A stretch of DNA of 64,000 nt from Rhodothermia bacterium (GCA_017303715.1 JAFLBZ010000022.1:3961-67960); one strand, 5' to 3'; positions 39,813 to 56,212 are shown, counted from the stretch's first letter. Notes: a model not told the origin generated them from the sequence alone. Numbers and translations are program-made.

Positions 39813-39848
39813 TGTTCTTATTTGCTTTAAGGGTAGTTTGGGACATTG

Positions 39849-42110: not shown

Positions 42111-42176
42111 ACAATCGGTGTGGGTCTTACGTCTCTATGATGTTTCCCGAAAGAGGATTTTCCGGTTGTCCTTTAA

Positions 42177-42680
42177 TTATTTTATGGAAACCTTACTACC
42201 TTGAACAGACACTTGTAAAGTGCTGTTTTTGTTGGGATTGATTTCCGTGACTGTCCGCCAAAGATTACCATCAGGCCGGAAGAAATCCACCGCCACCCCA
42301 ATATACTTGGTGGTTTCGTAGAGGAAAACTTTGTGGTTTTTTGCAACATTGGGGTCAATCTCGAAGCTAAGGGTTTGGTTTGGATCTCCTGCAATGTCCG
42401 GCAAAAGGGTTTCCTTTTTCAGCCAAAAGGCTTGACGGGAAGAGGCCATAAAGAGTTCTTTGCGCTGGAGTTGATAGACCACAACCCGCACACGGTTCCC
42501 ACCATTTAGGCTTGCATCGGCTTTTACGGTCAGTTCAACTGACCGTCGGGTCTCGACTGGGGTTGTAACAACGGTTTGGGGTGGTTTTTTCTTTTTAAAC
42601 AAAGTACAGCCGGGCATCAAAACGCCTACCAAAAGTAGGGCGCTCCATAAAACGGAGTGTAAAACTTTTTTACGCAACAT
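42177..42680 (-). CDS. tssJ: Type VI secretion lipoprotein TssJ-like
   Basis: Lipobox LMPGC, 167 aa, LNGGNRVRVVVYQLQ....F resembling TssJ/SciN, and a position directly upstream of tssK. Confidence 0.7.
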   Translation of the reverse strand: MLRKKVLHSVLWSALLLVGVLMPGCTLFKKKKPPQTVVTTPVETRRSVELTVKADASLNGGNRVRVVVYQLQRKELFMASSRQAFWLKKETLLPDIAGDPNQTLSFEIDPNVAKNHKVFLYETTKYIGVAVDFFRPDGNLWRTVTEINPNKNSTLQVSVQGSKVSIK

Positions 42681-42719: not shown

Positions 42720-43970
42720 CTATTTAACAGATTCGGTTTTGGTCAAATAAGCCTTTACAAATCCGGGACGAAAGAGGGTCTTTTCCAGTACCCCTTTATC
42801 CTCTCGAACCAATTCAAAATGTGCTTGTTGCACCAATTTCAACCATTTTGCATGACTTAACATACCAACAGTGTATAAGTCTTGACCTTCTTTCTCCGCC
42901 ACATTCCGGATATACGCTGGGTTTAACTGGTCTAGAATGCGTAGGACACCCGATTGTACCGCTTGTTTGTACCCCTCTAACAAAGCGATTTCGTGATATA
43001 GGACAGCATCTGCAAATTGTTCTAAGGCCGCAAGCCGCGTTCGGAGTACTTCATAGGGCACATGAATGTCGTACAAGAAGGCTTTGTATTGTTCGGCAGT
43101 TGCGGTATGAAACGGAAAACCTGTGGCATGTGGAATAAAAGAATGCCCCAGAAACTCAAGCCGGAAATGGGCAGGAATTTTAATAAGTTTTTCCACAATA
43201 CGCAACATCACATCGTCCACAACCGACATCCGTTTCAAGACCAACCCATCTTGGCTACTACTATAAATCCCACCGATGACCCTTTCCCATTCGGTTTTGT
43301 TTTGGACATCTATCCCAGAAAAGGGTACAAAGCCCGGGGTTTCGTATCCTACCGATGAGGTGCGTTTTTCGGGTTCCACAGCAGCAACAGAGACAGGAAT
43401 TTGCGGTATTTCGGTCTTTGGCCGAATGGCATCCACCATCTTCAAGGCGATGTCATCTGCGGCAAGTATGCCCAATTCTCGCTGAAAAGCCGCTTCTAAA
43501 TCAGCGAGGCGGGTTCCGGGGTCTGCCTGCACATAGGTTGCTTTTATGTGTTGCAGGGCATCTGTTATGCCTTTTACTAAATCCGCAAATGGATTGAAGG
43601 CTTGCTGAACAGCCGTATGCCCCACGTCATCTTCAGCTTTCTCTGGTTCTACTTTTGGTGTAAGGTCTTGTATTTTAAGTTGATACTTACCGATCTCTAA
43701 TTGATCGAGGTCACGCAACTGGTATTTTTTGCCATGCTCAAGCTTTTCACCATTTAAATACGTAAAGTTCTTGCTCGCCTCGTCCACAATCCATGCAAAG
43801 GCATCTTCGAGGTAAATAACGGCATGATGCCGCCCGACAATAAGCTCACGGTCTGGCAGTACAACCTTATTTTCAGGAAGCCGGCCAATAGTCACCGGGC
43901 CTTCATCAAATAGATAATCGGATGTAAAATCATCCCGGACGGAATGGCTGACAATGATTTTGAGTAACAT
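42720..43970 (-). CDS. tagH: T6SS-associated FHA-domain protein (TagH/Fha-like)
   Basis: FHA domain at the N-terminus (GPVTIGRLPENKVVLPD..VGRHHAVI...DEASKNFTYLNG). The internal ATG at 43970 (MLLKIIVSH...) gives the typical TagH N-terminus. The ORF could extend to 44033. Confidence 0.75.
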   Translation of the reverse strand: MLLKIIVSHSVRDDFTSDYLFDEGPVTIGRLPENKVVLPDRELIVGRHHAVIYLEDAFAWIVDEASKNFTYLNGEKLEHGKKYQLRDLDQLEIGKYQLKIQDLTPKVEPEKAEDDVGHTAVQQAFNPFADLVKGITDALQHIKATYVQADPGTRLADLEAAFQRELGILAADDIALKMVDAIRPKTEIPQIPVSVAAVEPEKRTSSVGYETPGFVPFSGIDVQNKTEWERVIGGIYSSSQDGLVLKRMSVVDDVMLRIVEKLIKIPAHFRLEFLGHSFIPHATGFPFHTATAEQYKAFLYDIHVPYEVLRTRLAALEQFADAVLYHEIALLEGYKQAVQSGVLRILDQLNPAYIRNVAEKEGQDLYTVGMLSHAKWLKLVQQAHFELVREDKGVLEKTLFRPGFVKAYLTKTESVK

Positions 43971-44072
43971 GTCGGGTATAGATCGGCAAATGTATGAACC
44001 TTTCGCGGGCAATAGGATATGTGAATGTACCACTTATGGGAGGTTTTCGCAACCTTTTGTCCGGCAAACTTT

Positions 44073-45251
44073 TTAGAACGACCAATAAAGCCCTACACTG
44101 GCACTCAATTCTCTTAGTGAACCGAAAGTTGGGTAGTATTTTTCATTGGCGACATTGCCCATGACATAGCGAATGCGTAACGGAACCAAAACGCTATTGC
44201 TCACCCGAAAATCAGGCTCAAAGCCAAAACCAAAAACCAATGCGCCCGAAAGCCATGCGGGCGTAGCCTCATAAGAACGAAGTTCGGCAGTAAAACCTGG
44301 AACAAATTGTTTGTCTAAACCCATACGGTAGGTTCCACGAGCAATCATCACCGCAGGATTTGTGTTCACCGCCTCTTCTAAGGGTTTATCGCCAATAAAC
44401 TGTGCTACTGCGTTTTTTGCACGAGAACGATATCGGAGCATCGCAGACCATTCAGACGTTGGGTTAAGTTGTCGGTATTGAAGTACCATACTGAACTTAT
44501 TTCCCGCTTTAAACACGGATTGATCCACAAAAACATCCTCTTGATAGCTTGTCAGCATCGCATCAACCCCAAGAGAACCATTGTTCCCCACCCTCAAGTT
44601 TAGTCCCAGATCCGCCGTGACTTCGTTCCCCGGTTTATAGGTGTAGTCATAGTCTGCAAGTGGTCTAAACCCGCTGTTTACGATGTATGATAGCCCACCT
44701 CCCATTACCACTTGGTCATTTAAGGGAAATGCGCCCGAAACACCTGTCATGATGGCCGTTCCTTGTCCTAAAGTGGGTAATTTAAACGCTAAAACCTGAT
44801 TGGAAAAGAGCCCAAGTGTTTCCAACTCGGAAGCAGAAACCGAGGATCGTCCCGTTGGCAAATTTACGGTTGCGTTAAAAATTAAGTTAGGGCTAGGCAA
44901 GCGATAAGAGACAGAAACTTGCGTATCGCCTAATCCAGAAAGGGAGGTTTCAGGAACCGTATATGTGCAATCTTTACACGTTGCACTAAAGGTACCATGT
45001 GTATTGCGTAAGCTCAACAGCACCTGATTGTTTACCTGATAATAGACCAAGAGTTGGTTTGAAATTTGACTGAGCTTATTGGTTTCATCAGGATTTGCCT
45101 CAAGATTCCACGTCTGATACGTGGGCATAACGCTCACGAATCGTTGGTTTCGCACGTTTTGCGGGTCTTCGGTAGTAGGCGAAGTGGTTTGTTGTGCTAA
45201 TGCCGGAAAAGCAGTCAAAACCCCGGCGAGCAGCATTAAGATTTTTTTCAT
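44073..45251 (-). CDS. Predicted outer-membrane beta-barrel protein, family unknown
   Basis: Signal peptide (AFPALAQQ), an alternating beta-strand pattern throughout, and a C-terminal aromatic signature (GLYWSF). Confidence 0.55.
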   Translation of the reverse strand: MKKILMLLAGVLTAFPALAQQTTSPTTEDPQNVRNQRFVSVMPTYQTWNLEANPDETNKLSQISNQLLVYYQVNNQVLLSLRNTHGTFSATCKDCTYTVPETSLSGLGDTQVSVSYRLPSPNLIFNATVNLPTGRSSVSASELETLGLFSNQVLAFKLPTLGQGTAIMTGVSGAFPLNDQVVMGGGLSYIVNSGFRPLADYDYTYKPGNEVTADLGLNLRVGNNGSLGVDAMLTSYQEDVFVDQSVFKAGNKFSMVLQYRQLNPTSEWSAMLRYRSRAKNAVAQFIGDKPLEEAVNTNPAVMIARGTYRMGLDKQFVPGFTAELRSYEATPAWLSGALVFGFGFEPDFRVSNSVLVPLRIRYVMGNVANEKYYPTFGSLRELSASVGLYWSF

Positions 45252-45269
45252 GTCGTTTCAGGGTTTAGA

Positions 45270-46577
45270 TCAGTTGCCTTTGGGTGGAAATACGGGAGGC
45301 CGGGGCAAGTCTGTTTGCTCGGAAACCCGTCCAAATTCATCGGTAGGATTTCGTTTGTCAGGATTTGGGAAAAGATTGCTTCCAAGTTCGGTCCCCACTG
45401 CTTGTAAACGGTCTGCCACCAATTGGTCATTACCCAAACCGGAACCACCATTTTTGCCAGCTCCACTAAAGTCATAAGTGAAATTCAGGTCTTTCCATGT
45501 ACTTCCGGCGGCCTGCCGATTGATGTTCTTGTCCAGAAGCTCCCTGGCTTTTTGGAATTTAGGATCCAGTTCAACAGCGCGGCGGAAGTTTCGTAAAGCC
45601 CCTGTCACATCTCCACTGTCTTCGGACTCCATGCCTCTGCAATAGGCCAAGAAGGCTTGTAGGTTTTGGGTTGGAATGGTTCCCAATATTTTCTGGCGTT
45701 CTTGCTGGGTAATAGGGATTTTCATGCTTTCCAACAGTTTGATAACCACTGTTTTTTGGAGCCGGAACAAATCGGACAAAGGACCGGGTTCGGTCTTGAA
45801 ATCTGACTCATCTTTCAAAACATCCCAATAACCCGCATCAATGGTGATTTGGTCTTTTGCAGAAACATTATAATTTCCCGAAACCACCTTAGAGGCGCCT
45901 AAGATCCGCCCTGCACGAGGGGCCGTCTCTGGATCAATAAAGCCCGTTTGACCTTGTGCGATTTCTTGTTGGAGCACCCCAATCTGGAGGCGTTCTAATA
46001 ATTTAAGCCCCTGTACTGACCCCAAGTCCGTAATGATGAGGGCGGCGATTCCGCGGCTGAGTGGGGCATATTGTTTATTCTTCCCCAGATAGTTAAAGGG
46101 GAAAACGGCTACGGCATTTGGCTCAATCCGCCCATTGGTTAACTCTCCCGATGATTCTTTCCGCGCCAACTCGGACATTTCGGAGCGTAGAATTGCACGG
46201 GTCAGGTTCAGGTAACGCCCTTCCAGCAATCGGGTAAAGCTCACCTTGGGATCGTATTGGGTATGGTTTTTATAGATTTCCAAGGCTGATGCCCGCCGGT
46301 TGGTCGCCTCAAGCACCAATCCATAATAAAGGGCGACTTTGGGGTCTGCGGGAGAACGCACAAGGGCATCTTTCAAGTAGCTTTCAGCCTGATCGAATTG
46401 ATTCAACTCAAAATGAGCTGCCCCTAATTCGCGCATCAAGACTGGATTTCCTGGGGTTTTAACCAAAAGCCGCTCGTATTCCTGTATTCTTTCTTTTGGC
46501 GGTTTTATGTTTTGAACCCCACTGCATCCAGCTTGGAAAAGCAAGAAAGAGAAGAGCAACGTGTTGAAGTATCTCAT
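45270..46577 (-). CDS. TPR lipoprotein with central CsgG/LpoB/TolB-N-like alpha/beta module
   Basis: Lipobox FQAGC and N- and C-terminal TPRs. The central segment is AVAVFPFNYLG..LSRGIAALIITDL......LLER.....LQQEI......F.......AGRILGASKVVSGNY. Confidence 0.6.
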   Translation of the reverse strand: MRYFNTLLFSFLLFQAGCSGVQNIKPPKERIQEYERLLVKTPGNPVLMRELGAAHFELNQFDQAESYLKDALVRSPADPKVALYYGLVLEATNRRASALEIYKNHTQYDPKVSFTRLLEGRYLNLTRAILRSEMSELARKESSGELTNGRIEPNAVAVFPFNYLGKNKQYAPLSRGIAALIITDLGSVQGLKLLERLQIGVLQQEIAQGQTGFIDPETAPRAGRILGASKVVSGNYNVSAKDQITIDAGYWDVLKDESDFKTEPGPLSDLFRLQKTVVIKLLESMKIPITQQERQKILGTIPTQNLQAFLAYCRGMESEDSGDVTGALRNFRRAVELDPKFQKARELLDKNINRQAAGSTWKDLNFTYDFSGAGKNGGSGLGNDQLVADRLQAVGTELGSNLFPNPDKRNPTDEFGRVSEQTDLPRPPVFPPKGN

Positions 46578-46602
46578 AAAGGCAATTTTTTAAAGGACGA
46601 AC

Positions 46603-47721
46603 TTATTTTACATTCGCTGCGGCCATACGCTGCGAGGTTTCGATCACCGCAATTTTTTCTTTGGCTTGCTCGAATCTTCCATCCAATTGGGCTGCCAATT
46701 TAAATTTCTCCAAAGCCAAATCGGGACCTTGGGTGTGGTAAATTTCCAGTCCTTCCGCATATGCCAACATTGCATCTAAGGAATTGGTTGGATTGGCAGC
46801 GGCCATTTTGATATTTTGATTCTCGTTGATACGCCTGGCCAACCGAAGGGCCAACTGGTCAGAAAGCGCCATGATGTCAGCAGGTTTTCCTTCCATATTC
46901 TCGGTCAAGAGAATTTCGGATGTTTCGACCTTAACAAGCCGAGCTGCAATTCGGACACGGTTTTTGTCCAACACAATAAAGGTTCCAAAAACAACAGAAT
47001 GTGCCCCAAGCATTTTCCCGACCCTTACCGCCTGTGAGACATCAAAACTTGACGGATCATTTTGGATTTTGGCTTCTTGCATTAACCAATCTAACCGAGC
47101 TCTTTCTACCACCTTCAGGTTTACATTTTGTTGGAATTGAAACATCATTAATTGCGGGAGGCCCACCTGCAAACGGTCAAATCGGGCGGCATCGGTAGTG
47201 ATAGAGGCGTTGTGGAAATCCATCACGGCAATCGTTTTGATGCCCGGATCTGCCCGTTCTACCCCAAAACCACCTGTTTTATTTTTTCTGGCCATATAAT
47301 AGGCGCGAAGATACTCTAAAGGCTTTTTGTCTGGATCGGGATCATATGCGGGTGGTTCTTCCTGAAGAAGTGTGGAAACCAATTGTACTGCCTTGTTGGA
47401 TTCTTCGGAGGCAGCCGCAAATTCGGCCAAAGCCTCAATGGCCGCCCGACGGTCGGTAACACTTAAGCCACGGTCACGGCTAAGGCGCTCCAATTTAGGC
47501 AAAGCCTCATCGTATTCACCCATGTTAAACTGCCGGATCGCTTCCTGAACACGTGGATCAATAATCCGAATAGGCTGCGGCTTGGTGCTGGAGGTGGGTA
47601 CTTCGGTATTATTTGCCACTGGAGTTGACACCTCACTGGGCACGACTTTTGGCCCCGAACAAGCTCCAAAAACCAATGCAACCAAGGCCAGAAGCGTTGC
47701 TGAATAAAAGAAGGGTTTCAT
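46603..47721 (-). CDS. TPR lipoprotein, paralogue of the 45270-46577 product
   Basis: Lipobox VFGAC and the same TPR / IAVMDFHN...VVERARLDWLMQE...VGKMLGAHSVVFGTF / TPR architecture. Confidence 0.6.
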   Translation of the reverse strand: MKPFFYSATLLALVALVFGACSGPKVVPSEVSTPVANNTEVPTSSTKPQPIRIIDPRVQEAIRQFNMGEYDEALPKLERLSRDRGLSVTDRRAAIEALAEFAAASEESNKAVQLVSTLLQEEPPAYDPDPDKKPLEYLRAYYMARKNKTGGFGVERADPGIKTIAVMDFHNASITTDAARFDRLQVGLPQLMMFQFQQNVNLKVVERARLDWLMQEAKIQNDPSSFDVSQAVRVGKMLGAHSVVFGTFIVLDKNRVRIAARLVKVETSEILLTENMEGKPADIMALSDQLALRLARRINENQNIKMAAANPTNSLDAMLAYAEGLEIYHTQGPDLALEKFKLAAQLDGRFEQAKEKIAVIETSQRMAAANVK

Positions 47722-47749: not shown

Positions 47750-49336
47750 TTAAAAACGTACCGTTGTTGTGGCTGTTTTTCCGGCTACAACCTTAACAGA
47801 GGTATTTTTGGTGACGCCATTGGCAGTAACTGCAACCGCATAAGTACCTGGTTTTCCGGTAAATCTAAGCCGATTTCCATACTTACTGCCTAAATCGGAT
47901 GAAATGGTTGCCGGAAGCGGTTCTCCGTCAGACCCCACCACTGTTACCATAAACGAACCTACGGTCTCTTCAGGCTCAGGCTTAGGGTCTTCTTTTGGTT
48001 TTTCGGTTGCAGGTGGCGTTGTTGTAGGGGTTTGTGTTTGGGTTGGTCGAGTCGTGGGCTGGCTTGGTCGTGTTAGTGGCTCACGATTTTGGGCGGTTTC
48101 CCGAACGTTTTGCGCGGCTTGTTGCAGACGATCCCGAACAGGTGTATTGCTACCTTGGGGGGTAGGATTTGAATTTGCAGGCGTTGTATTGTTTGCCGGA
48201 TTGCCTGAAGGGGTTGTTTTCACCTCTGGCGTTATATTGGTTGTATTGCCCGTCGTGTTTTCTGGCGTGAGCGTACTTTGGGCCAAAGACTCTGGTTGTG
48301 GTGTAATTTGTTGGGAGGTTGGTTTTGGTTTTGGCGTAGGGTTTAACACAAATATCCAAGTGGCAACAAGTCCTAAGAGGACAACTACGGCAATGCCACC
48401 CAGCATGATCCAATTGGGTTGGCGCGTCCCACTATGGCTTGATTTTAAAGGAATGGCTGATTTTTTGCCCGTAGTAATGGGTGGGCTATAAGTCGCTTGT
48501 GATCCTGTTGCCAATTGTTGCAATCCAAGACGCATGTCTGATGCGGTCGCATAGCGTTTATCGGGCTTCACTTGTATCGCTCGATTGATCACCTTGGCCA
48601 AATCGGCGGGAATACCGGGGGCAGCGGAGGTAATCGCGGGGACATCTCCATCCACGATTTTCTTTTGGATTACAAAAGGTGAGGTAGCTGTTACATCCTC
48701 GAAAGGCGGTCGTCCAGCCAATGCCTCATACATCGTGATGCCCGTAGAATAAATATCTGTTCTTTGATCTACCGTGTCTAACCCACGCACTTGCTCTGGC
48801 GACATATAGTAGAGACTTCCTACAGCCTGTCCGACTTGTGTAAGTGGGTTTCCGGCAATCGTCGCCTGTGGGTCAATCAATTTGGCCAGTCCAAAGTCCG
48901 TCACCTTCACCGTCCCATCAGCCATAATCATAATATTGCTTGGTTTGATGTCTCGGTGAATGATGGCTTTAGAGTGGGCATATTCAAGAGCGCTCAATAA
49001 TTGGCTTGAAATATTGGCTACTTCCTCTGGCGAGTTATATTTGCCCTGCGCAATGAGGTCTGACCAATCTTTACCCTCCACAAATTCCATAATAATGACC
49101 ATACCAATGGGTGTTTCACGCATTCCAAAAACTCGAACGATATTGGGATGGTCTAACATGGCCAACGCTTTGGCTTCTGCACGAAAGCGCTGAAGGAACA
49201 TGGGGTCTTGAACGTTCATTACCTTGAGCGCAACGGTACGATCAAGTTGGGTGTCCACCGCCTTCCAAACTTGTCCCATTCCCCCCTGGCCAAGTTTTTG
49301 CGTAACCCTATAAATATCAATGTATTGCCCTACCAT
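47750..49336 (-). CDS. Membrane-anchored Hanks-type Ser/Thr protein kinase (PpkA-like role)
   Basis: GQGGMGQVWKA, VALK, HRDIKPSNIM, DFGLAK and SPEQ, then a TM (WIMLGGIAVVVLLGLVATWIFVL). A Pro/Thr-rich linker and a beta-rich PEGA/carboxypeptidase-regulatory-like C-terminus of about 70 aa follow. Confidence 0.9.
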   Translation of the reverse strand: MVGQYIDIYRVTQKLGQGGMGQVWKAVDTQLDRTVALKVMNVQDPMFLQRFRAEAKALAMLDHPNIVRVFGMRETPIGMVIIMEFVEGKDWSDLIAQGKYNSPEEVANISSQLLSALEYAHSKAIIHRDIKPSNIMIMADGTVKVTDFGLAKLIDPQATIAGNPLTQVGQAVGSLYYMSPEQVRGLDTVDQRTDIYSTGITMYEALAGRPPFEDVTATSPFVIQKKIVDGDVPAITSAAPGIPADLAKVINRAIQVKPDKRYATASDMRLGLQQLATGSQATYSPPITTGKKSAIPLKSSHSGTRQPNWIMLGGIAVVVLLGLVATWIFVLNPTPKPKPTSQQITPQPESLAQSTLTPENTTGNTTNITPEVKTTPSGNPANNTTPANSNPTPQGSNTPVRDRLQQAAQNVRETAQNREPLTRPSQPTTRPTQTQTPTTTPPATEKPKEDPKPEPEETVGSFMVTVVGSDGEPLPATISSDLGSKYGNRLRFTGKPGTYAVAVTANGVTKNTSVKVVAGKTATTTVRF

Positions 49337-49344: not shown

Positions 49345-50961
49345 TTAGTTATTGTTGTCCATTTTTTTGATTTCCGTAATTCGGTTTTGAATGGTCTCGT
49401 TGTCCAATAATTGTTGTGACTTCAGATACAATTCAATAGCCTCTTTGGGTTTTGCACGTTTTCCATCCCCTAGAGACATCAGTTTTTTTGCGGCTTTATT
49501 TCGCTCCTCTCGGTACGATGCTTCATTCCCAAATTCCGCTTCCAATGCCTTAAACTGTGCAATCGCTTCTTGGTGATTGCCCGATTGGAGGCTGCTCCAT
49601 GCAGACGCAAGCCCAGTGGTCAATTTTGCCCCATCTTTTGCTTGAACAGGTGGTTTTTCCGGTTCTGGTTTCGCGATCGGCGCTTCTACCGGTCTTGTGG
49701 TTTTGGATTTTACATCTAGTTTTGGCTGGTTATTTGGTAGAGCCGGCGTCACAGATTGCGCAGCCGAAAGAGGTGCTTGTTTCGCATCTGGATTTACGGG
49801 GTTATCCGAGAGCGCGGGCTGGAGGTCATCGGCGGATGAAGACAAAATTTCTTCGGCATTTGTCGGGTTTTCCTGATCGTTATGAGTGTAGGCATCGGCA
49901 TTATAAGGCTCATCTTGCAGTGCAAAAGAATTATTCTTAGATCGGTTTAAGAGATCCATATTGAACCAAACAGCCCCAATAATCACTAAAACAGCGATTC
50001 CCGTCAGGACGGGGATGAACCATTTGGGCCGCTCTTTTGCTTCAGGCGGTGGAGGTAAAACAGCGTGCCCACGATCATTCCGCCACGTTTCTGGTTGTTC
50101 TAAGGCATTCCAAACCCCCGTAGCCACTGCGGGAGTTGTCGAAGCACCAGCTTTTGTATCAAATAAAGTATTGGAAGTTGCGTAGGTAATGGGTTGATCT
50201 GTAGCAACAACACGGATCACCTGTACCGTTGAGTTGTCCATACCACCACGATCATTGGCCAAAGCCACCATTTTTTCTGCGGCTTCCTGTGGCGGCATTG
50301 AACGTACAATTTCAGCAATTTCATCCAGATGAACCTCGCCCAAGCCGTCGCTACACAGCACATAAACGTCATTCAGGTGAAGGCGGTCTATTTCGAATGT
50401 ATCCACCTCCACATGAGGTTCTGGGCCTAAAGCACGTTCCAACATCGAGCGTTGCGGGTGTCTTTCGGCTTCTTGCTGTGTTAAGATGCCCTTTTTGACC
50501 ATTGCCGAAATCATGGTATGGTCTTCCGAAATTTGCTCTGCTTTATCTGGACGAATGCGATACAATCGGCTATCCCCAACATGCGCCACAAAAACTCTAT
50601 CGCCATCCACCAACATCGCCGTACTGGTTGTTCCCATAATCTGGCCACCGGGCAATGCTTTCAGTAAATTGTGTATTTTCAAATTGGCTTCTTGAAAAGC
50701 ATGTTCCAACTTGGTCAGTACCGAACCCATTCGGCGTTCAAAATAGGCTTCTCCAATGGTATTGACGGCAGTATGGCTTGCAACCCTACCATCTGCATGT
50801 CCTCCCATTCCATCCGCTACCACATACAAACGGACTGCTGGCTTGTCGTCTTGTATCGTTCCGACAAAGTGCCCACAAGCGTCTTGGTTTTCGGTTCGCA
50901 CCCGTCCCACATCGGTTTTTTCGCCAAACTGGAGTTGGTGCGGCAGTTGTTTATGTGCCAT
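49345..50961 (-). CDS. Membrane-anchored PP2C-family Ser/Thr phosphatase (PppA-like role)
   Basis: RTENQD, VVADGMGGHADG, LCSDGL and DNSTV, then a TM (WFIPVLTGIAVLVIIGAVWF). The extracytoplasmic tail ends in TPR-like helices. Confidence 0.9.
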   Translation of the reverse strand: MAHKQLPHQLQFGEKTDVGRVRTENQDACGHFVGTIQDDKPAVRLYVVADGMGGHADGRVASHTAVNTIGEAYFERRMGSVLTKLEHAFQEANLKIHNLLKALPGGQIMGTTSTAMLVDGDRVFVAHVGDSRLYRIRPDKAEQISEDHTMISAMVKKGILTQQEAERHPQRSMLERALGPEPHVEVDTFEIDRLHLNDVYVLCSDGLGEVHLDEIAEIVRSMPPQEAAEKMVALANDRGGMDNSTVQVIRVVATDQPITYATSNTLFDTKAGASTTPAVATGVWNALEQPETWRNDRGHAVLPPPPEAKERPKWFIPVLTGIAVLVIIGAVWFNMDLLNRSKNNSFALQDEPYNADAYTHNDQENPTNAEEILSSSADDLQPALSDNPVNPDAKQAPLSAAQSVTPALPNNQPKLDVKSKTTRPVEAPIAKPEPEKPPVQAKDGAKLTTGLASAWSSLQSGNHQEAIAQFKALEAEFGNEASYREERNKAAKKLMSLGDGKRAKPKEAIELYLKSQQLLDNETIQNRITEIKKMDNNN

Positions 50962-50998
50962 TTGGTTTCGTAATACTTAGAATAAATATTTTACCGGC

Positions 50999-53900
50999 TC
51001 ACCAGAACGTCCGGAATTTGAAGAGTTGTTCGCGTTCGCTATCCATTGCTAAGGTCATTGGCGGCAAGTCAGAATAAGATGGCCCACCTCCCGGCATCAC
51101 ATATTGCCCACTCCCGACTCGTTGAATGGCTGCGGCCAGTGGATTGTCAAAATCAAACCCAAATAAGCGCGGATTTTCGCCGATAACGGCTGCGGCGGTA
51201 ATGTAAAAAACATAATTTTTGGTTTCTTCCGGCATCCAGGTTTGCGTGTACATGTTCCAAAAATTACGGTCTCGTGGATTGTTTGGCATCGCACGTATCC
51301 GCTTGATGACATTTCCTTCCCCCCAGTTGTAAGATGCCATCACACACAAGCCTGATGCCTGAGCATCCGTTTTGTAAATATCCGCAATATAGGAAGAAGC
51401 GGCCTCGCCAGCTTTTACCGGATCGTGCCGTTCATCGCCTGGATCATAAACACCCGAATCTTTCAGTGGGCCTATTCTAAGGCCATATTTTGCACCTGTT
51501 GCTGGAATAAATTGCCACATCCCTTTAGCATGTCCATACCGTGTTGGCGGCCCCACAATTTTGGTATTAAAATTGCTTTCTTGCATACCCAAATAAAAAA
51601 ACTGTGGCGGCACACCACGTTTCATAAAACTGGCCACAATGGGTTCAACGTAGCCATTTTCTTGTGCGGTTTTTAGAGCATTTATATAACGGGAACTGCT
51701 TTGCCAATATTTGATATATTGTTTTACTTTCTCCACATAACCCGCCGGCATTATCATCTCATTCTCGCCAAAAAGCCGTGTGATATCAAAAATCAATTTA
51801 TCAACACTGCCGATATTATTCCCGCCATTTGCGAGATTTACCGCTGCTCGATATTGCGGACGCGCACGCATTTTTTCAGAATAGGCTTGTTGCATTTCGA
51901 TGATTTTACGGGCGGTTTCGTCTCGCAATTTTTTATTCGTATTGAGCGTAGAATCGTTCGCAAATTTAAGCTGGAGTTCTTTAATTTGATAAAATAAAAC
52001 GACATTTAAGGAATCCTGAGTCGTGAGTGCATTATTCGAGGCATCTAAGGCTGCACCTAAAGTATTGCTCTCGCTATGTTTCCAAAATGCCCAAATAGCC
52101 GCAATCAATAATCCTACAGCCACGACACCGATAATGACATAATATTTTTGCTTATCCCGCTTGCTCATTCGGTTAAAAGCCGCCATCATCATTTGTGTAC
52201 GAGAACCCATTTCTGCCGTTTGCCCCGACTCAAATTTGCGCATATATCCTGAAACGGATCCTGCTGCTGGGCTTGTCTTGGGTGCATCTTGGTATGAAGG
52301 CGCAATCGCAGAAGGTTCCCATTTTTTTTCACTTCCCCAATCCGAAGGTGGTTGATTTGTTGGCGGAATAGATGGGCTTGACCAATTTTCGGGTGCGGAC
52401 CACACATCGGCACTTGCCGGCTTTTGTGTCGGTTGCGGCGGTGACGCTCCCCACTCAGAAGCTGCACTTTGAGGCTCAGAAGGCTTGGCTGCCCAATCAA
52501 AGGCGGGCGAAGCGGCTGGTTTTTCAGACTCCCAACCCGATGAAGGGCTTTCTTCTGCTGGAGGCGAACCCCAAGACATGCCACCAGAAACAGGAGGCGG
52601 TGTGTCCCATGTCAAGCCCCCCGATTGGGGAGCATCCCAGTTCACAAAAGGATCATCTTCTGGGGGCGTCGTTTTTTGCTCTGGAACAGCCGGCATCCCC
52701 GGTGTACTCCATTCATAGTTGGGCGGCACATTATCCGAACCGCCCTTCTGGTCCCAGTCGGTTTGAGAAGTTAGCCAATCTGGCTTTGGGGTTTCTGACG
52801 ATTCCCAAGAAGTCGGCGTAGTTTGTTGGGCTATATTCGGGATGTCCCAACCACCGGAGGATGGCACTTCCCATTCAGTTGGTGAGACTGGAGCCGCTGA
52901 CGGGGCTTCGCCAACCACATTTTCCAATGACCTAAAAAACCCCGTGTTTAAGCCCGTTTGTGGCAAATCAGGTGTTTGCGCTGGCGTTATTCCTTGCAAG
53001 TCCTTGAGAGCAGAACTTATTCCAGAGGACAAGCCCAAGTTTTTAAGCGGATCCTCCACAGGTTCTGGTTTGCTGGGTGTCGGGCTTGGCGAGTTTTCTT
53101 GCTGAGGTATGTCCGCTAAGGCTTTAAAAATGCTTGACGGTAAAGACGATGCCGCTGAAGGAGACGGCGGAATGGCGACCTCATTCGGTGCTTCTTCCGT
53201 TAAGCCCGCAAAAAAACCCGTGCCCAAGCCTAAAGAACTTTCTATAGATGGTGCTGGCGTGGTCTCTGGTAATGGAGGTGAGGGCGAGGATGAAACTTCC
53301 TCCTGAACAGATTCCGACAAAGAACGGAAAAATCCCGACGCCAAGCCTGTGGATGTGGAGGTCTCTGGTGATACTGGTGAAGGCGGGGACGAGGCTTCCT
53401 CCTGAACAGATTCCGACAAAGAACGGAAAAATCCCGATGCCAAACCCGTGGATGGAAATTCATTTACGGCTGGCTCTTCCAAAAGCGGCGTTTGTGGAGC
53501 CTCAAAAGCAATATTTTCTGGTTTAGATTCAAAAAAAGCCTTCCCCGAATCTAATTCCGCCTTAAAAACGCCAGAGTCAATTAAGGGTTTGGATTCTGGA
53601 AAAGCAGATTCCCCTGTTTTTTCTGCTTCATCCGAGAACGAAGCAAAAAAGCCAGACGCCAAAGCTCCTGTTGGTTCTATTGGTTTGGGATCTATACGGC
53701 TTTCCACTGGTTCTGAAAATGCTGGTGAACCTCCCGAAATATCGCCTAACGACTGCCAAAACGAAGTTGCCAAATTGGGCGTAACATTCCCTTCGGGCGG
53801 CTTTTCCACCACATTTGTTTGGGGTTCAAAGCGTAGTAGTGGGCCATTTCGCCCAAACTCCACTTCTTTTGCCCCATCTAAGACAATGTGCGTAACTCTG

Positions 53901-54121
53901 GCGCCGTTTACCCAAATGCCGTTTGTGCTACCAAGGTCTTGGAGAACCCAATTTTCACCCTCTTTAATGACTTCGGCGTGGTTACGGCTAACAAGTGAGT
54001 TTGAGAGATAAATAGGACAGGTAGCATCCCTACCAATTTTGAATGCTTGTTCAAATTGAAAAGAGGTTGCAACGTCGGCAACTTGTCCTTTCAAAATAAT
54101 AACGCGGATGTTTGTTTGCAT
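50999..54121 (-). CDS. FHA domain - long disordered repeat region - TM - lytic transglycosylase (SLT) fusion protein
   Basis: N-terminal FHA (FKIGRDATCPIYL..VSRNHAEV....W.LQDLGSTNGIWVNG), then about 550 aa of low complexity. A TM (YYVIIGVVAVGLLIAAIWAFW) precedes the SLT catalytic region (LGMQESNFN...GAKGMWQFIPATGAKYGL...MASYNWGEGN). Confidence 0.8.
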   Translation of the reverse strand: MQTNIRVIILKGQVADVATSFQFEQAFKIGRDATCPIYLSNSLVSRNHAEVIKEGENWVLQDLGSTNGIWVNGARVTHIVLDGAKEVEFGRNGPLLRFEPQTNVVEKPPEGNVTPNLATSFWQSLGDISGGSPAFSEPVESRIDPKPIEPTGALASGFFASFSDEAEKTGESAFPESKPLIDSGVFKAELDSGKAFFESKPENIAFEAPQTPLLEEPAVNEFPSTGLASGFFRSLSESVQEEASSPPSPVSPETSTSTGLASGFFRSLSESVQEEVSSSPSPPLPETTPAPSIESSLGLGTGFFAGLTEEAPNEVAIPPSPSAASSLPSSIFKALADIPQQENSPSPTPSKPEPVEDPLKNLGLSSGISSALKDLQGITPAQTPDLPQTGLNTGFFRSLENVVGEAPSAAPVSPTEWEVPSSGGWDIPNIAQQTTPTSWESSETPKPDWLTSQTDWDQKGGSDNVPPNYEWSTPGMPAVPEQKTTPPEDDPFVNWDAPQSGGLTWDTPPPVSGGMSWGSPPAEESPSSGWESEKPAASPAFDWAAKPSEPQSAASEWGASPPQPTQKPASADVWSAPENWSSPSIPPTNQPPSDWGSEKKWEPSAIAPSYQDAPKTSPAAGSVSGYMRKFESGQTAEMGSRTQMMMAAFNRMSKRDKQKYYVIIGVVAVGLLIAAIWAFWKHSESNTLGAALDASNNALTTQDSLNVVLFYQIKELQLKFANDSTLNTNKKLRDETARKIIEMQQAYSEKMRARPQYRAAVNLANGGNNIGSVDKLIFDITRLFGENEMIMPAGYVEKVKQYIKYWQSSSRYINALKTAQENGYVEPIVASFMKRGVPPQFFYLGMQESNFNTKIVGPPTRYGHAKGMWQFIPATGAKYGLRIGPLKDSGVYDPGDERHDPVKAGEAASSYIADIYKTDAQASGLCVMASYNWGEGNVIKRIRAMPNNPRDRNFWNMYTQTWMPEETKNYVFYITAAAVIGENPRLFGFDFDNPLAAAIQRVGSGQYVMPGGGPSYSDLPPMTLAMDSEREQLFKFRTFW
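53261..53458. repeat. Tandem 99-bp (33-codon) duplication inside the FHA-SLT gene
   Basis: Copies at 53261-53359 and 53360-53458 share a 43-nt identical core (CTTCCTCCTGAACAGATTCCGACAAAGAACGGAAAAATCCCGA). On the minus strand they encode GLASGFFRSLSESVQEE(A/V)SS.PSP..PET twice. Confidence 0.85.
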
Positions 54122-54334: not shown

Positions 54335-56212
54335 TCATTTTGAGATTTCAAAGCCAAGCGCAAGACTTATTTCGTCTCCTAACAAAGACTTTGGCGAATT
54401 GACCCAGATACCAACACCAAAATGATCTTTGGATCGCGGACTATCACCAACTTCGACCTTGACCGCATTTTCATCAAGCTGATATCCGCCCTCAGATAAC
54501 ACAGCAGTCAATTGGGCAGACAGTTGCGCTTGAATATTAGATGCGCTCATCCCTGCGACGAGTTTGGTTTGTGCAAACAGAATGGCTTGAGTGATTTTTG
54601 AAGTCACCATTTTGCATGCAAGTGTTGCATGGAGTTTTGCCTCTGCCAATGAATCAGGGTCTATATAATTGGCTACTTTTTGAAAGGACTGCGCACCCGA
54701 AATATACAAGCTATCTGTATTGGGCCGAGATGCCAAAACTGTAAAACCCGCATCTGCCAATTCACTTTGTTTTTGTTGATCTAACCACATAAACAACGGT
54801 GAAGCATTTGTATCCGATTTTCTAATGGGATAATCGGCTTGCAGACCTGCACCTCCAGCACCAACAAACCCTACACCCCAGCCGTGTTTTAGGTATCCTT
54901 GTGCAAGAGCGATGCCCACAGGCAACGAAGCTCGACCCCACAAATGCCCACTCCCATCCGAAGGGGTTTTCTCGTCATAAGCTAGGCCGCCTAAAAGTTG
55001 CACTCCACGATAAGGCGCCCGGAGCAAAACATGTGGGAGTGCTAACGTTATCCAGCCAGAAGAAGGTTGTTCTCTTAATAATGGCCAGCCTAAAAACGCG
55101 GGTTTTTGCAGGTGTTGCAAAATGCTTGCCGCTCGGAGATTGCCATAGGCATCCTTTTCTGTCCAAAGCCTCGTTGCGGCTGCCCCAATAACCGGAATTT
55201 GTAAACTCGCTGCCGTTTCTGAAATATCCGATACGCGCTCCAAATCCATCGCAACATCCCCAAACGTAAAGTCCAAAATCATTGCTGCAAAGGGTACTTG
55301 TGGGGGTTCGTGATAGGCTGGCAACAAAACTTGGTGGTATAAGGCGGTGTTAAGTTGCTCTTTATTGACGGATAACACTTCCAACCGCACGTTTTTGCGA
55401 AAATCCAAACGATCCACCATTTTTTTTAAACCACGCCAAGCCGATTCTAATTGCTGAAAAGCCGTATGGTGTAAAATGGCATCCAATTGCTGAGCAATAC
55501 TGCGCTCTACATCCTCAATAGCTTCTTGAAGTGTAGATTTTCCAACTTCAGCCGGACGGGCAGGCTTTGAAGCCGATTTTTGTCCCGCCAATGCCCGAAT
55601 CAAGGCGTCCATAGGATCGCCCCCAGCTTGTTTTCCAGAAGACGGCGTGTCAATATCAACTAAATTCAGCAAATTATCCAATCCCCCACCAGTTGATGAT
55701 GATATTGAAGGTGCTGATGTTTGAGGAGTCGGCTGGATTCGATCCGACCAATGAAATGCTTCTTCTCTTTCAAAACCAAGCGTTTGAATGGTTCCCACAA
55801 ATTCATGATGGCCTATTTGGTCTCGCTTCACCATAAGTAAGGCATCTCTTAAGCCGAGATAACGCTTCACCAAAGGTAGCTGGTCTATCAAGCGGTCTGG
55901 CTGAAAAGCCTGTATATGATCAAAAACCAATGTTGAGGTAAGTGTTTTTGGGCCATTACCAAGGTGATTAGGAACCTCGATGGTGACGGAAGGCCGCCAC
56001 GAGATCATTAATTCCGAGAAAGTGTATTTGTCAACTTTGACGAGCTGAGTTGCTCCTTCCCAATCAACCTCGTGCATCAAATGAGGCGTCAGATCAGAAG
56101 CTAAAAGGAGGCGAAAGGGCGTATTGGTCGCAATTTCGCGGGGTTCTTCCCCTTTAGAAGCAGAGAATCCCATATTTACACGGAATTCCTGAATTGGAGA
56201 GGTGTTTTCCAT
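54335..56212 (-). CDS. tssBC: Fused TssB-TssC (VipA-VipB-like) contractile sheath protein in one polypeptide
   Basis: aa 1-150 parallel TssB/VipA (FRVNMGF...TPFRLLLASDL, VKVDKYTFSELM, VFDHIQAFQPDRLIDQLPLVKRYLGLRDAL). aa 155-175 are a Ser/Pro/Thr-rich linker. aa 175-625 parallel full-length TssC/VipB (LDAILHHTAFQQLESAWRGLKKMVDRLDFRKN, LLRAPY, HLWGRAS, SELADAGFTVL, C-terminal EISLALGFEI). Confidence 0.85.
   Translation of the reverse strand: MENTSPIQEFRVNMGFSASKGEEPREIATNTPFRLLLASDLTPHLMHEVDWEGATQLVKVDKYTFSELMISWRPSVTIEVPNHLGNGPKTLTSTLVFDHIQAFQPDRLIDQLPLVKRYLGLRDALLMVKRDQIGHHEFVGTIQTLGFEREEAFHWSDRIQPTPQTSAPSISSSTGGGLDNLLNLVDIDTPSSGKQAGGDPMDALIRALAGQKSASKPARPAEVGKSTLQEAIEDVERSIAQQLDAILHHTAFQQLESAWRGLKKMVDRLDFRKNVRLEVLSVNKEQLNTALYHQVLLPAYHEPPQVPFAAMILDFTFGDVAMDLERVSDISETAASLQIPVIGAAATRLWTEKDAYGNLRAASILQHLQKPAFLGWPLLREQPSSGWITLALPHVLLRAPYRGVQLLGGLAYDEKTPSDGSGHLWGRASLPVGIALAQGYLKHGWGVGFVGAGGAGLQADYPIRKSDTNASPLFMWLDQQKQSELADAGFTVLASRPNTDSLYISGAQSFQKVANYIDPDSLAEAKLHATLACKMVTSKITQAILFAQTKLVAGMSASNIQAQLSAQLTAVLSEGGYQLDENAVKVEVGDSPRSKDHFGVGIWVNSPKSLLGDEISLALGFEISK

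What the first reader, a model, noticed from the sequence alone, without database searches (positions are those of the whole stretch)
50999..54121. FHA phosphothreonine-reader fused through a disordered linker and a TM helix to a periplasmic lytic transglycosylase
The second gene of the block encodes a cytoplasmic FHA domain (about 54121-53820), then about 550 aa of low-complexity sequence. A single TM (about 52080-52147) and an SLT-type muramidase domain with the catalytic ESNFN glutamate context (about 51150-51640) follow. It sits directly upstream of the PP2C/Hanks-kinase pair. T6SS assembly needs local peptidoglycan remodelling, which known systems achieve by recruiting a housekeeping transglycosylase or a dedicated peptidase. 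TssL here ends 12 aa after its TM, with no OmpA-like PG-binding extension, and no TagL/TagN-like gene is present. I infer that cell-wall opening is coupled directly to the threonine-phosphorylation switch through this protein. I do not know of this architecture being described.
Basis: partly seen in the sequence, partly recalled or inferred. Interest (0 to 1): 0.7.

Follow-up and report, generated by a model that had tools for sequence, protein, structure and literature searches.

The report
Phospho-reader fused to cell-wall cutter
A real membrane protein in a type VI secretion gene cluster joins a cytoplasmic phosphothreonine-binding (FHA) domain to a periplasmic cell-wall-cutting enzyme. It belongs to a large, apparently unstudied family found beside such clusters in many phyla, and probably lets a kinase switch decide where the wall is opened for the machine.

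Summary
ORF 50999-54121 (-) encodes 1040 aa. It has an FHA domain with intact pThr-binding residues, a ~550-aa S/P/E/A-rich linker, one N-in/C-out TM helix, a helical stalk and an MltD-like lytic transglycosylase domain with the catalytic Glu (E848). It lies between a fused TssB-TssC sheath gene and single-pass PP2C and Hanks-kinase genes. TagH and TssJKLM follow further downstream.

The claim of uniqueness does not hold. FHA-TM-SLT is a widespread family: about 190 clusters at 50% identity and at least 590 genomes. It occurs in Chromatiaceae, Ignavibacteria, Acidobacteria, delta-proteobacteria and Nitrospirota. Members are normally ~500 aa with a ~60-aa linker.

Among 47 loci with full flanks, 66% have T6SS genes within 10 kb, in at least four different gene orders. 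57% have a kinase or phosphatase. About 25% sit in housekeeping neighbourhoods.

The long linker is specific to Rhodothermales and carries conserved motif arrays. The family also shares a juxtamembrane Thr motif that looks like an FHA ligand.

The protein co-occurs with OmpA-bearing TssL elsewhere, so it is not simply compensating for the short TssL. T6SS reviews from 2023 and 2026 list no such protein.

Best reading: a T6SS-dedicated transglycosylase recruited by phosphorylation. This is inferred, not shown. It is a new variant of a known kind.

The parts
50999..54121 (-). Whole FHA-linker-TM-stalk-SLT gene (1040 aa)
   Evidence: ORF list and translation. Four full-length orthologues of 995-1066 aa at 64-100% identity, three of them examined in the same synteny.
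53852..54040 (-). FHA domain core (aa 28-90), cytoplasmic. Canonical pThr-binding residues G30-R31, S45-x-x-H48 and N67-G68 are present.
   Evidence: PF00498 at 3.6e-16. GR, SxxH and NG are at least 90% conserved across the family.
52262..53821 (-). Rhodothermales-specific acidic S/P/E/A-rich linker (aa ~101-620). 'GLxSGFFxxL'-type motifs lie in aa 117-405 and 16 Trp motifs in aa 417-601.
   Evidence: Composition and motifs. Motifs are invariant while spacers vary in four orthologues. The family's median linker is 63.5 aa, against 518-588 aa in this clade only. The motifs are absent from the other cluster proteins.
53261..53454 (-). 99-bp tandem duplication (2 copies, 87% match) encoding the two GLASGFFRSLSESVQEE motifs
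   Evidence: Tandem Repeats Finder. Orthologue P0002 has only one copy.
52142..52261 (-). Family-wide conserved cytoplasmic juxtamembrane motif (aa 621-660): GYMRKFESGQTAEMGSRT642QMMMAAF...KRDKQKYY. Family consensus is [HR]YF[DE]x6-8GEHTxx[MI]RxAFxxVKKK. Candidate phospho-acceptor and FHA ligand.
   Evidence: Alignment columns printed. The Thr is near-invariant and the +3 residue is hydrophobic. The phospho-acceptor role is inference only.
52082..52138 (-). Single transmembrane helix (aa 662-680), N-in/C-out
   Evidence: Kyte-Doolittle score 2.62. 5 K/R upstream against 1 downstream.
51803..52081 (-). Periplasmic helical stalk (aa 681-773), three long helices, family-conserved
   Evidence: AlphaFold model with helices at model residues 3-43, 47-71 and 76-98, pLDDT 50-75. 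F56, Y57 and K60 are invariant.
51110..51802 (-). MltD-like lytic transglycosylase domain (aa 774-1004). Catalytic E848 is at nt 51578-51580. Motifs are QES, GMWQF and ASYNWG.
   Evidence: PF01464 at 1.9e-14. NF008050 MltD at 1.9e-17, below cut-off. pLDDT above 90. Foldseek top hit 8rhf_B MltD, E 3.9e-6, then Slt70 and MltE. phmmer hit to 8rhe at 4e-10 with the E-S motif aligned. Invariant residues.
51002..51109 (-). Clade-specific C-terminal tail (aa 1005-1040) ending LFKFRTFW
   Evidence: Conserved in the four orthologues. Beyond the family core. Low pLDDT. Function unknown.
49345..50961 (-). PP2C phosphatase, single-pass (TM aa 315-333) with a ~200-aa periplasmic tail. Starts 37 nt after the FHA-SLT stop.
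   Evidence: Pfam PP2C. NCBIfam Stp1-like at 1.9e-65. TM. The tail has no Pfam match.
47750..49336 (-). Hanks-type Ser/Thr kinase, single-pass (TM aa 312-330) with a ~200-aa periplasmic tail
   Evidence: Pkinase at 8.6e-56. TM. The tail has no Pfam match.
44073..47721 (-). Envelope trio that travels with FHA-SLT, PP2C and the kinase: a CsgG-like lipoprotein (46603-47721), a TPR lipoprotein (45270-46577) and a probable OM beta-barrel (44073-45251)
   Evidence: Pfam. Lipoboxes and signal peptide. Same six-gene order in Ignavibacteria and Rhodothermales loci. For unk392: PF13557 on an orthologue, an all-beta low-confidence model and a C-terminal YWSF.
42720..44033 (-). Separate TagH/Fha-type T6SS FHA protein (the true start is probably Met22, near nt 43970)
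   Evidence: FHA at 1e-12 plus a weak T6SS_FHA_C match. TIGR03354 at 1.3e-21, below cut-off. The orthologue is 416 aa.
36288..42680 (-). T6SS membrane-complex and baseplate genes: TssJ (42177-42680), TssK (40755-42110), short TssL (39849-40511) and TssM (36288-39812)
   Evidence: Pfam. TssL ends 15 aa after its TM.
54335..56212 (-). Fused TssB-TssC sheath gene (625 aa), first gene of the block
   Evidence: VipA at aa 9-144 and VipB at aa 230-511. TIGR03358 and TIGR03355. 626 aa in the orthologous loci.

Best explanation
The gene encodes a T6SS-associated, inner-membrane-anchored lytic transglycosylase. Its location or clustering is probably set by threonine phosphorylation.

Proposed mechanism:
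1. The single-pass Hanks kinase encoded two genes downstream is activated. The signal probably comes through its periplasmic tail and the CsgG-like, TPR and beta-barrel envelope trio.
2. The kinase creates a pThr site on itself, on TssL or TagH, or on the conserved juxtamembrane Thr642 of this protein.
3. The cytoplasmic FHA domain binds that pThr. This brings or clusters the protein at the nascent TssJLM site.
4. The MltD-like domain, held on a helical stalk at peptidoglycan height, cuts glycan strands locally so that the membrane complex can assemble.
5. The PP2C reverses the signal.

Recruitment needs no allostery across the membrane.

What is shown: the architecture, the topology, intact catalytic and pThr-binding residues, the fold, the operon context, and a family-wide association with T6SS and kinase genes. 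What is inferred: enzyme activity, the phospho-partner, the direction of signalling and any requirement for T6SS.

The 550-aa linker is a Rhodothermales-specific insertion with two arrays of conserved short motifs. I read it as a multivalent cytoplasmic docking tether, with low confidence.
For: - Domains, topology and catalytic residues.
- SLT fold with MltD as the best structural match.
- The FHA GR/SxxH/NG residues are at least 90% conserved across the family.
- FHA lies upstream of SLT in 84 of 85 loci, and 112 of the top 120 homologues carry both Pfam domains.
- The gene sits in one tight same-strand block with TssBC, PP2C, the kinase, TagH and TssJKLM.
- T6SS genes lie within 10 kb in 31 of 47 full-flank loci, and a kinase or phosphatase in 27 of 47.
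- The gene orders differ between lineages.
  - Rhodothermales: TssBC-X-PP2C-STK-...-TagH-TssJKLM.
  - Ignavibacteria: VgrG-PAAR-...-X-PP2C-STK.
  - Gamma/Chromatiaceae: X-TagH-TssJKLM.
  - Acidobacteriaceae: TssG-ClpV-VgrG-TssK-X.
- A conserved juxtamembrane Thr has a hydrophobic +3 residue, the typical FHA ligand pattern.
- Established precedents, cited from reviews: MltE is recruited by TssM for membrane-complex assembly, TagX is a locus-encoded PG hydrolase, and the PpkA/PppA/Fha pathway gates T6SS assembly.
Against: - There is no experimental data on any family member.
- 12 of 47 full-flank loci have neither T6SS nor kinase genes nearby and lie among housekeeping genes. The family is therefore not strictly T6SS-encoded.
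- The window lacks Hcp, VgrG, TssA/E/F/G and ClpV, so I could not verify that this organism's T6SS is complete.
- The 80 loci surveyed are the closest relatives of the query, not a random sample.
- A separate TagH is present, so an FHA reader for the pathway already exists.
- The phospho-partner is unknown, and the Thr642 idea rests on conservation alone.
Confidence: 0.5

Rival explanations
1. It is a general kinase-regulated cell-wall remodelling enzyme. The FHA-TM-SLT family would be housekeeping or stress-responsive transglycosylases controlled by Hanks kinases. A comparable case is FHA proteins reading phosphorylated cell-wall factors in Actinobacteria. T6SS loci would then sit next to it only because they share the same kinase/phosphatase pair.
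For: About a quarter of full-flank loci are stand-alone in housekeeping neighbourhoods. Bryobacterales copies sit next to PSCyt2, PSD1, DUF1501 and LssY_C genes. The catalytic domain is closest to the housekeeping enzyme MltD. The FHA domain's best NCBIfam matches include FhaB/FipA.
Against: T6SS genes lie within 10 kb in at least 66% of full-flank loci. They do so in several unrelated gene orders, including loci with no kinase adjacent to the gene. That is far above what a ~25-kb cluster in a multi-Mb genome would give by chance.
Confidence: 0.2
2. It acts as an outside-in sensor or anchor. The SLT domain would mainly bind peptidoglycan rather than cut it. It would either anchor the membrane complex as TagL does, or report wall damage or muropeptides to the cytoplasm. 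There the FHA domain and linker would scaffold kinase, TagH and baseplate assembly, which would be a tit-for-tat-like input.
For: TssL here lacks a PG-binding domain, and no OmpA-type gene is present in the window. The protein spans the membrane with a long conserved stalk. The Rhodothermales linker carries multivalent conserved motifs, which suits a scaffold. The kinase and phosphatase also have periplasmic tails.
Against: The catalytic Glu and all three family-1 LT motifs are invariant across the family, which argues for retained catalysis. The protein co-occurs with OmpA-bearing TssL in Chromatiaceae, so an anchoring role would be redundant there. A single TM helix with a ~60-aa linker, as in most members, is a poor signal transducer without oligomerisation.
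Confidence: 0.15
3. It is a T6SS effector or immunity-related muramidase, delivered to or protecting against competitors.
For: In Ignavibacteria the gene lies downstream of VgrG-PAAR and large putative effector genes. Transglycosylase-type T6SS effectors exist.
Against: The protein has an N-in single-pass topology with a cytoplasmic FHA domain. It has no PAAR, VgrG, MIX or Rhs-type delivery domain. It is highly conserved, at 45-55% identity across phyla, whereas effectors are usually polymorphic. It has a fixed partnership with PP2C and the kinase.
Confidence: 0.03

Closest known systems
MltE recruited by TssM in enteroaggregative E. coli (Santin & Cascales 2017, as summarised in PMC13584744 and PMC10433429)
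   Same: A family-1 lytic transglycosylase proposed to open peptidoglycan locally for TssJLM assembly. Spatial control is by recruitment to the membrane complex.
   Different: MltE is a small housekeeping OM lipoprotein encoded outside the T6SS locus, and it is activated by the TssM periplasmic domain. The protein here is encoded in the locus, anchored in the inner membrane, MltD-like rather than MltE-like, and carries a cytoplasmic FHA domain.
TagX (Acinetobacter/Burkholderia T6SS accessory L,D-endopeptidase)
   Same: [quoted passage not shown]
   Different: TagX is a VanY-type peptidase that cuts peptide cross-links, and it has no phospho-reader domain. This protein has a glycan-cleaving SLT fold plus an FHA domain.
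TagH/Fha1 with PpkA/PppA (threonine phosphorylation pathway)
   Same: An FHA domain next to a Hanks kinase and a PP2C in a T6SS locus, with canonical pThr-binding residues.
   Different: TagH is a soluble cytoplasmic protein with a T6SS_FHA_C domain, and a separate TagH is present here (42720-44033). This protein has no T6SS_FHA_C domain. Instead it has a TM helix and a periplasmic enzyme.
MltD (E. coli / P. aeruginosa, PDB 8rhe/8rhf)
   Same: It is the best sequence and structure match for the catalytic domain. The E-S, GxWQF and AYNxG motifs are shared.
   Different: MltD is an OM lipoprotein with C-terminal LysM repeats. This protein has no LysM domain and no lipobox. It has an N-terminal FHA domain, a TM anchor and a helical stalk. 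Its NCBIfam MltD score is 62.7 bits against a cut-off of 508.
Specialised transglycosylases of other trans-envelope machines (T3SS EtgA/IpgF, T4SS VirB1, flagellar FlgJ/SltF)
   Same: The concept is the same: a dedicated SLT-type enzyme encoded with the machine it serves.
   Different: Those are small secreted periplasmic proteins without cytoplasmic signalling domains. The 2023 review calls such enzymes 'an exception in T6SS clusters'.
YscD/PrgH-type FHA-TM-periplasmic proteins and Myxococcus GltG
   Same: The topology is the same: an N-terminal cytoplasmic FHA-fold domain, one TM helix and a periplasmic domain. PF16697 and NF033760 give partial hits.
   Different: Their periplasmic parts are ring-building or other non-enzymatic domains. 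The hits here cover only the FHA fold.

Membership tests
FHA domain (PF00498) | Profile match above Pfam's gathering score | tested here: met
   59.8 bits against a cut-off of 20.7, aa 28-90
FHA domain (PF00498) | Canonical pThr-contacting residues (Gly-Arg, Ser-x-x-His, Asn-Gly loops) | tested here: met
   G30-R31, S45-R-N-H48 and N67-G68 in the sequence. At least 90% conserved across the family.
FHA domain (PF00498) | Binding of phosphothreonine peptides | not testable with these tools
   Needs ITC or pull-down with kinase-treated partners
Family-1 lytic transglycosylase (SLT, PF01464; MltD-like subfamily) | Profile match above the gathering score | tested here: met
   53.7 bits against 21.3, aa 835-947
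Family-1 lytic transglycosylase (SLT, PF01464; MltD-like subfamily) | Catalytic Glu in the E-S motif, plus the GLMQ-like and AYNxG motifs | tested here: met
   E848-S849, G867-M-W-Q-F and A929-S-Y-N-W-G. All are invariant in 40 sequences. The E-S motif aligns with that of MltD.
Family-1 lytic transglycosylase (SLT, PF01464; MltD-like subfamily) | Goose-lysozyme-like alpha-helical fold | tested here: met
   AlphaFold pLDDT above 90 over the domain. Foldseek hits are MltD, Slt70, MltE and Cj0843 with probability 1.0.
Family-1 lytic transglycosylase (SLT, PF01464; MltD-like subfamily) | Formation of 1,6-anhydroMurNAc products | not testable with these tools
   Enzyme assay required
MltD proper (NF008050 equivalog) | Full-length match above the NCBIfam cut-off, lipoprotein signal and LysM repeats | tested here: not met
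   62.7 bits against a cut-off of 508. There is no LysM Pfam hit and no lipobox, and the anchor is a TM helix. It is not an MltD orthologue.
T6SS-associated gene (TAG) in the sense of PMC13584744 | Encoded within T6SS loci, recurrently | tested here: met
   In the window it lies between TssBC and TagH-TssJKLM. 31 of 47 full-flank loci have T6SS genes within 10 kb.
T6SS-associated gene (TAG) in the sense of PMC13584744 | Contributes to T6SS activity | not testable with these tools
   Needs genetics (Hcp secretion, killing, sheath or TssM foci)
TagH/Fha1 (TIGR03354) | FHA plus the T6SS_FHA_C C-terminal domain, soluble | tested here: not met
   TIGR03354 scores 28 bits against a cut-off of 120 and covers the FHA part only. 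There is no PF20232 match. A separate TagH gene is present.
TagX | VanY-type L,D-endopeptidase domain | tested here: not met
   No peptidase Pfam hit. The domain is SLT.
TagL/TagN-type PG anchors | OmpA/MotB or PG_binding domain | tested here: not met
   No such Pfam domain in this protein or in any window ORF

The most novel reading that the evidence does not exclude
FHA-TM-SLT proteins would be the missing dedicated peptidoglycan gate of T6SS in many environmental phyla. Wall opening would be licensed directly by the threonine-phosphorylation pathway through FHA binding to a conserved juxtamembrane pThr (Thr642 here) or to the activated kinase. This would make cell-wall remodelling a checkpoint of T6SS firing. 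In Rhodothermales, the 550-aa linker with ~9 amphipathic 'GLxSGFF' motifs and ~16 Trp motifs would act as a multivalent hub that nucleates cytoplasmic T6SS assembly.
Probability: 0.2. Interest if true: 0.8.

Novelty: new variant of a known kind. Interest (0 to 1): 0.62.

Why it matters
How the 1.7-MDa T6SS membrane complex crosses peptidoglycan is solved for only two systems: MltE in EAEC and TagX in Acinetobacter. Reviews state that transglycosylases are an exception in T6SS clusters.

This work identifies a widespread locus-encoded transglycosylase family that carries a phosphothreonine reader and sits beside PpkA/PppA-type genes. If the reading is right, it supplies a dedicated enzyme for many non-model lineages. 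It would also physically connect the post-translational firing switch to cell-wall remodelling.

The idea is directly testable in cultured carriers such as Thiocapsa, Thiocystis and Thiorhodococcus. It also points to a general design for controlling a periplasmic autolysin from the cytoplasm.

Tried and rejected
- The first whole-protein homologue search returned only four full-length relatives, because the low-complexity linker dominated the word filter. Re-searching with the TM and periplasmic part revealed the family.
- Single-sequence tblastn probes under-detected T6SS genes. I replaced them with ORF clustering, Pfam annotation of cluster representatives and cluster HMMs.
- My crude ORF caller produced shadow ORFs in high-GC loci, so per-locus counts are lower bounds.
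- P0115 had no gene on record.
- The promoter and terminator scan of 49-57 kb was no better than shuffles for promoters and was uninformative.
- The AlphaFold model of unk392 had pLDDT 35, so I ran no fold search on it.
- The tblastn search of plasmids found no family member.
- Santin & Cascales 2017 is not held in the library. Its content is cited only through two reviews.
- Literature searches for 'FHA domain' + 'SLT domain', for T6SS + MltD, and for FHA + transglycosylase + T6SS found no description of this architecture. This is absence of evidence in an open-access library only.
- I considered the effector/immunity reading and rejected it on topology and conservation.
- I considered the idea that the protein compensates for the short TssL and rejected it as a general rule.


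Full report
**1. Is it there?**

Yes. The minus-strand ORF 50999-54121 encodes 1040 aa.

- Pfam finds FHA at aa 28-90 (3.6e-16) and SLT at aa 835-947 (1.9e-14).
- One hydrophobic helix lies at aa 662-680. It is preceded by RMSKRDKQKYY (5 K/R) and followed by one basic residue in 15. The FHA domain is therefore cytoplasmic and the SLT domain periplasmic.
- The FHA domain has the canonical pThr-contacting residues G30-R31, S45-x-x-H48 and N67-G68.
- The SLT part has E848-S849 in 'MQESNFN', plus GMWQF and ASYNWG. All of these are invariant in a 40-sequence family alignment.
- An AlphaFold model of aa 655-1040 (pLDDT 79.8, and above 90 over aa 774-1004) shows the TM helix continuing into a three-helix stalk, followed by a compact helical enzyme domain.
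- The model's best PDB matches are P. aeruginosa MltD (E 3.9e-6), then Slt70, MltE and Cj0843. phmmer aligns the E-S motif with that of MltD.
TssL ends 15 residues after its TM, not 12.

**2. Surroundings**

The gene is the second in a tight same-strand block:

| Position | Gene | Coordinates |
|---|---|---|
| 1 | Fused TssB-TssC | 54335-56212 |
| 2 | This gene | 50999-54121 |
| 3 | PP2C (37 nt downstream) | 49345-50961 |
| 4 | Hanks kinase | 47750-49336 |
| 5 | CsgG-like lipoprotein | 46603-47721 |
| 6 | TPR lipoprotein | 45270-46577 |
| 7 | Signal-peptide protein with no Pfam match | 44073-45251 |
| 8 | TagH | 42720-44033 |
| 9 | TssJ | 42177-42680 |
| 10 | TssK | 40755-42110 |
| 11 | Short TssL | 39849-40511 |
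| 12 | TssM | 36288-39812 |

Both the phosphatase and the kinase are single-pass proteins with ~200-aa periplasmic tails of unknown fold. The rest of the window is housekeeping. It has no Hcp, VgrG, TssA/E/F/G or ClpV, and no OmpA or PG-binding domain.

**3. It is a family, not a one-off**

- A search with the TM and periplasmic part gave 3906 clusters at E ≤ 1e-5. Of the top 120, 112 carry both PF00498 and PF01464. The other eight are short proteins of 238-398 aa.
- Typical members are 490-520 aa and share 45-55% identity with the query over the periplasmic part.
- An exhaustive HMMER scan of 1.84 billion representatives found 191 clusters (at 50% identity) with E ≤ 1e-30.
- These genomes span Chromatiaceae (Thiocapsa, Thiocystis, Thiorhodococcus, Thiohalocapsa), Competibacteraceae, Ignavibacteria, Acidobacteriota (Acidobacteriaceae, Bryobacterales, Vicinamibacterales), delta-proteobacteria, Nitrospirota and KSB1.
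- FHA sits directly upstream of the SLT match in 84 of 85 loci. The one exception is cut by a contig end.
- Source annotations are generic: 'FHA domain-containing protein', 'transglycosylase SLT domain-containing protein', 'MltD'. NCBIfam has no dedicated model.

**4. Is the family linked to T6SS?**

I clustered all ORFs of 85 loci, annotated cluster representatives with Pfam, built cluster HMMs and relabelled every ORF.

Recurrent arrangements:
- Rhodothermales (the window, L001/L002 and L006): the block described in section 2.
- Ignavibacteria/Bacteroidota (about 20 loci): VgrG-PAAR-large proteins-DcrB-like-X-PP2C-kinase-CsgG-like-TPR-unk392-Ig-repeat protein.
- Gammaproteobacteria/Chromatiaceae: X, then within 1-3 kb TagH-TssJ-TssK-TssL-TssM. 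A kinase or FGE-sulfatase/TPR protein, an autotransporter and a Sel1 protein lie nearby.
- Acidobacteriaceae: TssG-ClpV-VgrG-TssK-X, with the CsgG-like gene and kinase on the opposite strand.
- Several delta-proteobacterial loci have TssC, ClpV, TssG or VgrG nearby.

Of the 47 loci with at least 8 kb on both sides:
- 31 (66%) have T6SS genes or the VgrG-PAAR block within 10 kb.
- 27 (57%) have a kinase or phosphatase.
- 12 have neither.

A Pfam scan of 125 ORFs from those 12 loci shows ordinary housekeeping genes such as GidA, Pol A, TGT and G6PD.

These figures are lower bounds. I had no probes for Hcp or TssA/B/E/F, and VgrG in Ignavibacteria lies right at the 10-kb edge. The association with T6SS is far above chance and arose in several gene orders, but it is not obligatory.

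**5. What is special about the window's copy**

- In 164 family members the FHA-to-TM linker has a median of 63.5 aa. The Rhodothermales clade is the only one at 518-588 aa.
- The insertion is acidic and S/P/E/A-rich, but it is not junk.
- In four orthologues that are 64-87% identical overall, the spacers vary and carry indels, while two motif arrays are invariant.
- The first array has about nine 'GLxSGFFxxL'-type motifs in aa 117-405. These are moderately amphipathic, with µH 0.37-0.47 for most against a linker mean of 0.21.
- The second array has 16 Trp motifs (W[DEGS]x[PS]) in aa 417-601, spaced 6-24 residues apart.
- A 99-bp tandem duplication at 53261-53454 made two of the motifs.
- Neither motif occurs in any other protein of the cluster.
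- Because the linker is cytoplasmic, its partners must be cytoplasmic. I cannot identify them.

**6.

About 25 residues before the TM helix, every lineage keeps the motif [HR]YF[DE]x6-8-G-E-H-T-x-x-[M/I]-R-x-A-F-x-x-V-K-K-K. In the window this reads GYMRKFESGQTAEMGSRT642QMMMAAF.

A near-invariant Thr with a hydrophobic residue at +3 is the classical FHA ligand pattern. I therefore propose Thr642 as a candidate phospho-acceptor, read in trans by this FHA domain or by TagH. This rests on conservation alone.

**7. Mechanism**

The best-supported reading has four parts:
- The protein is an inner-membrane-tethered MltD-like transglycosylase.
- Its FHA domain docks on a kinase-generated pThr at the T6SS assembly site.
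- This concentrates the enzyme where TssJLM must cross the wall.
- The PP2C resets the system.

Recruitment alone would be enough, and no transmembrane allostery is required. MltE provides a parallel, since it is recruited by TssM.

Rivals:
- A general kinase-regulated autolysin that merely shares the kinase with T6SS. The stand-alone quarter of loci supports this.
- A PG anchor or sensor that signals outside-in. The invariant catalytic residues and co-occurrence with an OmpA-bearing TssL in Chromatiaceae (452 aa) argue against a purely anchoring role.
- An effector. The topology and conservation argue strongly against this.

Cutting and anchoring are in any case distinct functions.

**8. Comparison with what is known**

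- The 2026 review of T6SS accessory factors lists TagX (a VanY-type endopeptidase) and MltE (not encoded in loci) as the cell-wall remodellers. It lists TagE, TagG and TagH as the phospho-pathway. It mentions no FHA-transglycosylase.
- The 2023 review states that specialised LTGs 'are an exception in T6SS clusters'.
- No paper in the searchable library contains both 'FHA domain' and 'SLT domain'.
- The protein is not an MltD orthologue: 62.7 bits against a cut-off of 508, no LysM and no lipobox.
- It is not TagH, because it lacks T6SS_FHA_C and a separate TagH is present.
- It is not TagX, because the fold is different.
- It works like a specialised LTG of a trans-envelope machine, with an added phospho-reader.

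**9. Verdict**

- The 'undescribed architecture' is in fact abundant in databases but apparently uncharacterised.
- I rate it a new variant of a known kind. It has good experimental tractability because cultured purple sulfur bacteria carry it.

Noticed in passing
window 54335-56212 (-): The sheath subunits TssB (VipA, aa 9-144) and TssC (VipB, aa 230-511) are fused into one 625-aa protein. The fusion is conserved at 626 aa in the orthologous Rhodothermales loci L001, L002, L003 and L006. Other loci in the survey have separate TssB (~181 aa) and TssC (~500 aa).
   Followed up: partly
window 44073-47721 (-); also L004 15244-18777 and about 18 other loci: Three envelope genes travel as a fixed block with FHA-SLT, PP2C and the kinase in Ignavibacteria and Rhodothermales. 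They are a CsgG-like lipoprotein, a TPR lipoprotein with a weak TolB_N match, and a 392-aa signal-peptide protein. The CsgG-like gene and the kinase also recur in Acidobacteriaceae. The trio may be the periplasmic/OM input to the kinase, analogous in role to TagQRST but not homologous.
   Followed up: partly
window 44073-45251 (-): The 392-aa protein has no Pfam hit and only four close orthologues. Four features suggest an outer-membrane beta-barrel: a Sec signal peptide, an all-beta hairpin pattern in a low-confidence model (pLDDT 35), a C-terminal ...GLYWSF, and PF13557 on one orthologue.
   Followed up: partly
window 47750-48346 and 49345-49962 (-): Both the Hanks kinase and the PP2C phosphatase are single-pass membrane proteins. 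Their ~200-aa periplasmic tails match no Pfam family. A membrane-anchored PP2C with an extracytoplasmic domain is unusual for a PppA-type phosphatase.
   Followed up: partly
window 36288-56212: The T6SS block is partial. The 64-kb window has no Hcp, VgrG, PAAR, TssA, TssE, TssF, TssG or ClpV. The cluster is flanked by IleRS on one side and sugar-metabolism genes on the other, so the remaining core genes must lie elsewhere in the genome.
   Followed up: yes
window 51002-51109 (-): The FHA-SLT protein of the Rhodothermales clade has a ~36-aa C-terminal tail beyond the family core. It ends ...EREQLFKFRTFW, an aromatic terminus that resembles an outer-membrane-protein beta-signal. It is fully conserved in the four orthologues, and its function is unknown.
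   Followed up: no
window 53261-53454: A 99-bp tandem duplication (2.0 copies, 87% match) inside the linker encodes the duplicated GLASGFFRSLSESVQEE motif. Orthologue P0002 has one copy. This shows the linker grows and shrinks by in-frame repeat changes.
   Followed up: yes
window 52372-52821 (+) and 53448-54011 (+): Plus-strand ORFs of 149 and 187 aa overlap the linker. They are most likely shadow ORFs of the compositionally biased coding region, because the minus-strand frame is the one conserved in the orthologues.
   Followed up: partly
L009, L011, L016, L036, L038-L040, L043, L071, L076 (Chromatiaceae and other gamma loci): Between FHA-SLT and TagH these loci repeatedly carry an autotransporter (Calx-beta/Big_1 passenger), a Sel1-repeat protein and a ~920-aa TPR + FGE-sulfatase-domain protein. 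This conserved T6SS-adjacent set was not investigated.
   Followed up: no
window 56213-56909: A ~700-bp gap with no listed ORF of at least 100 aa entirely within it lies upstream of the TssBC gene. In the related locus L001 the corresponding interval holds a DDAH-family gene, which is absent here. The gap probably contains the promoter of the T6SS block. The sigma-70 consensus scan was uninformative.
   Followed up: no
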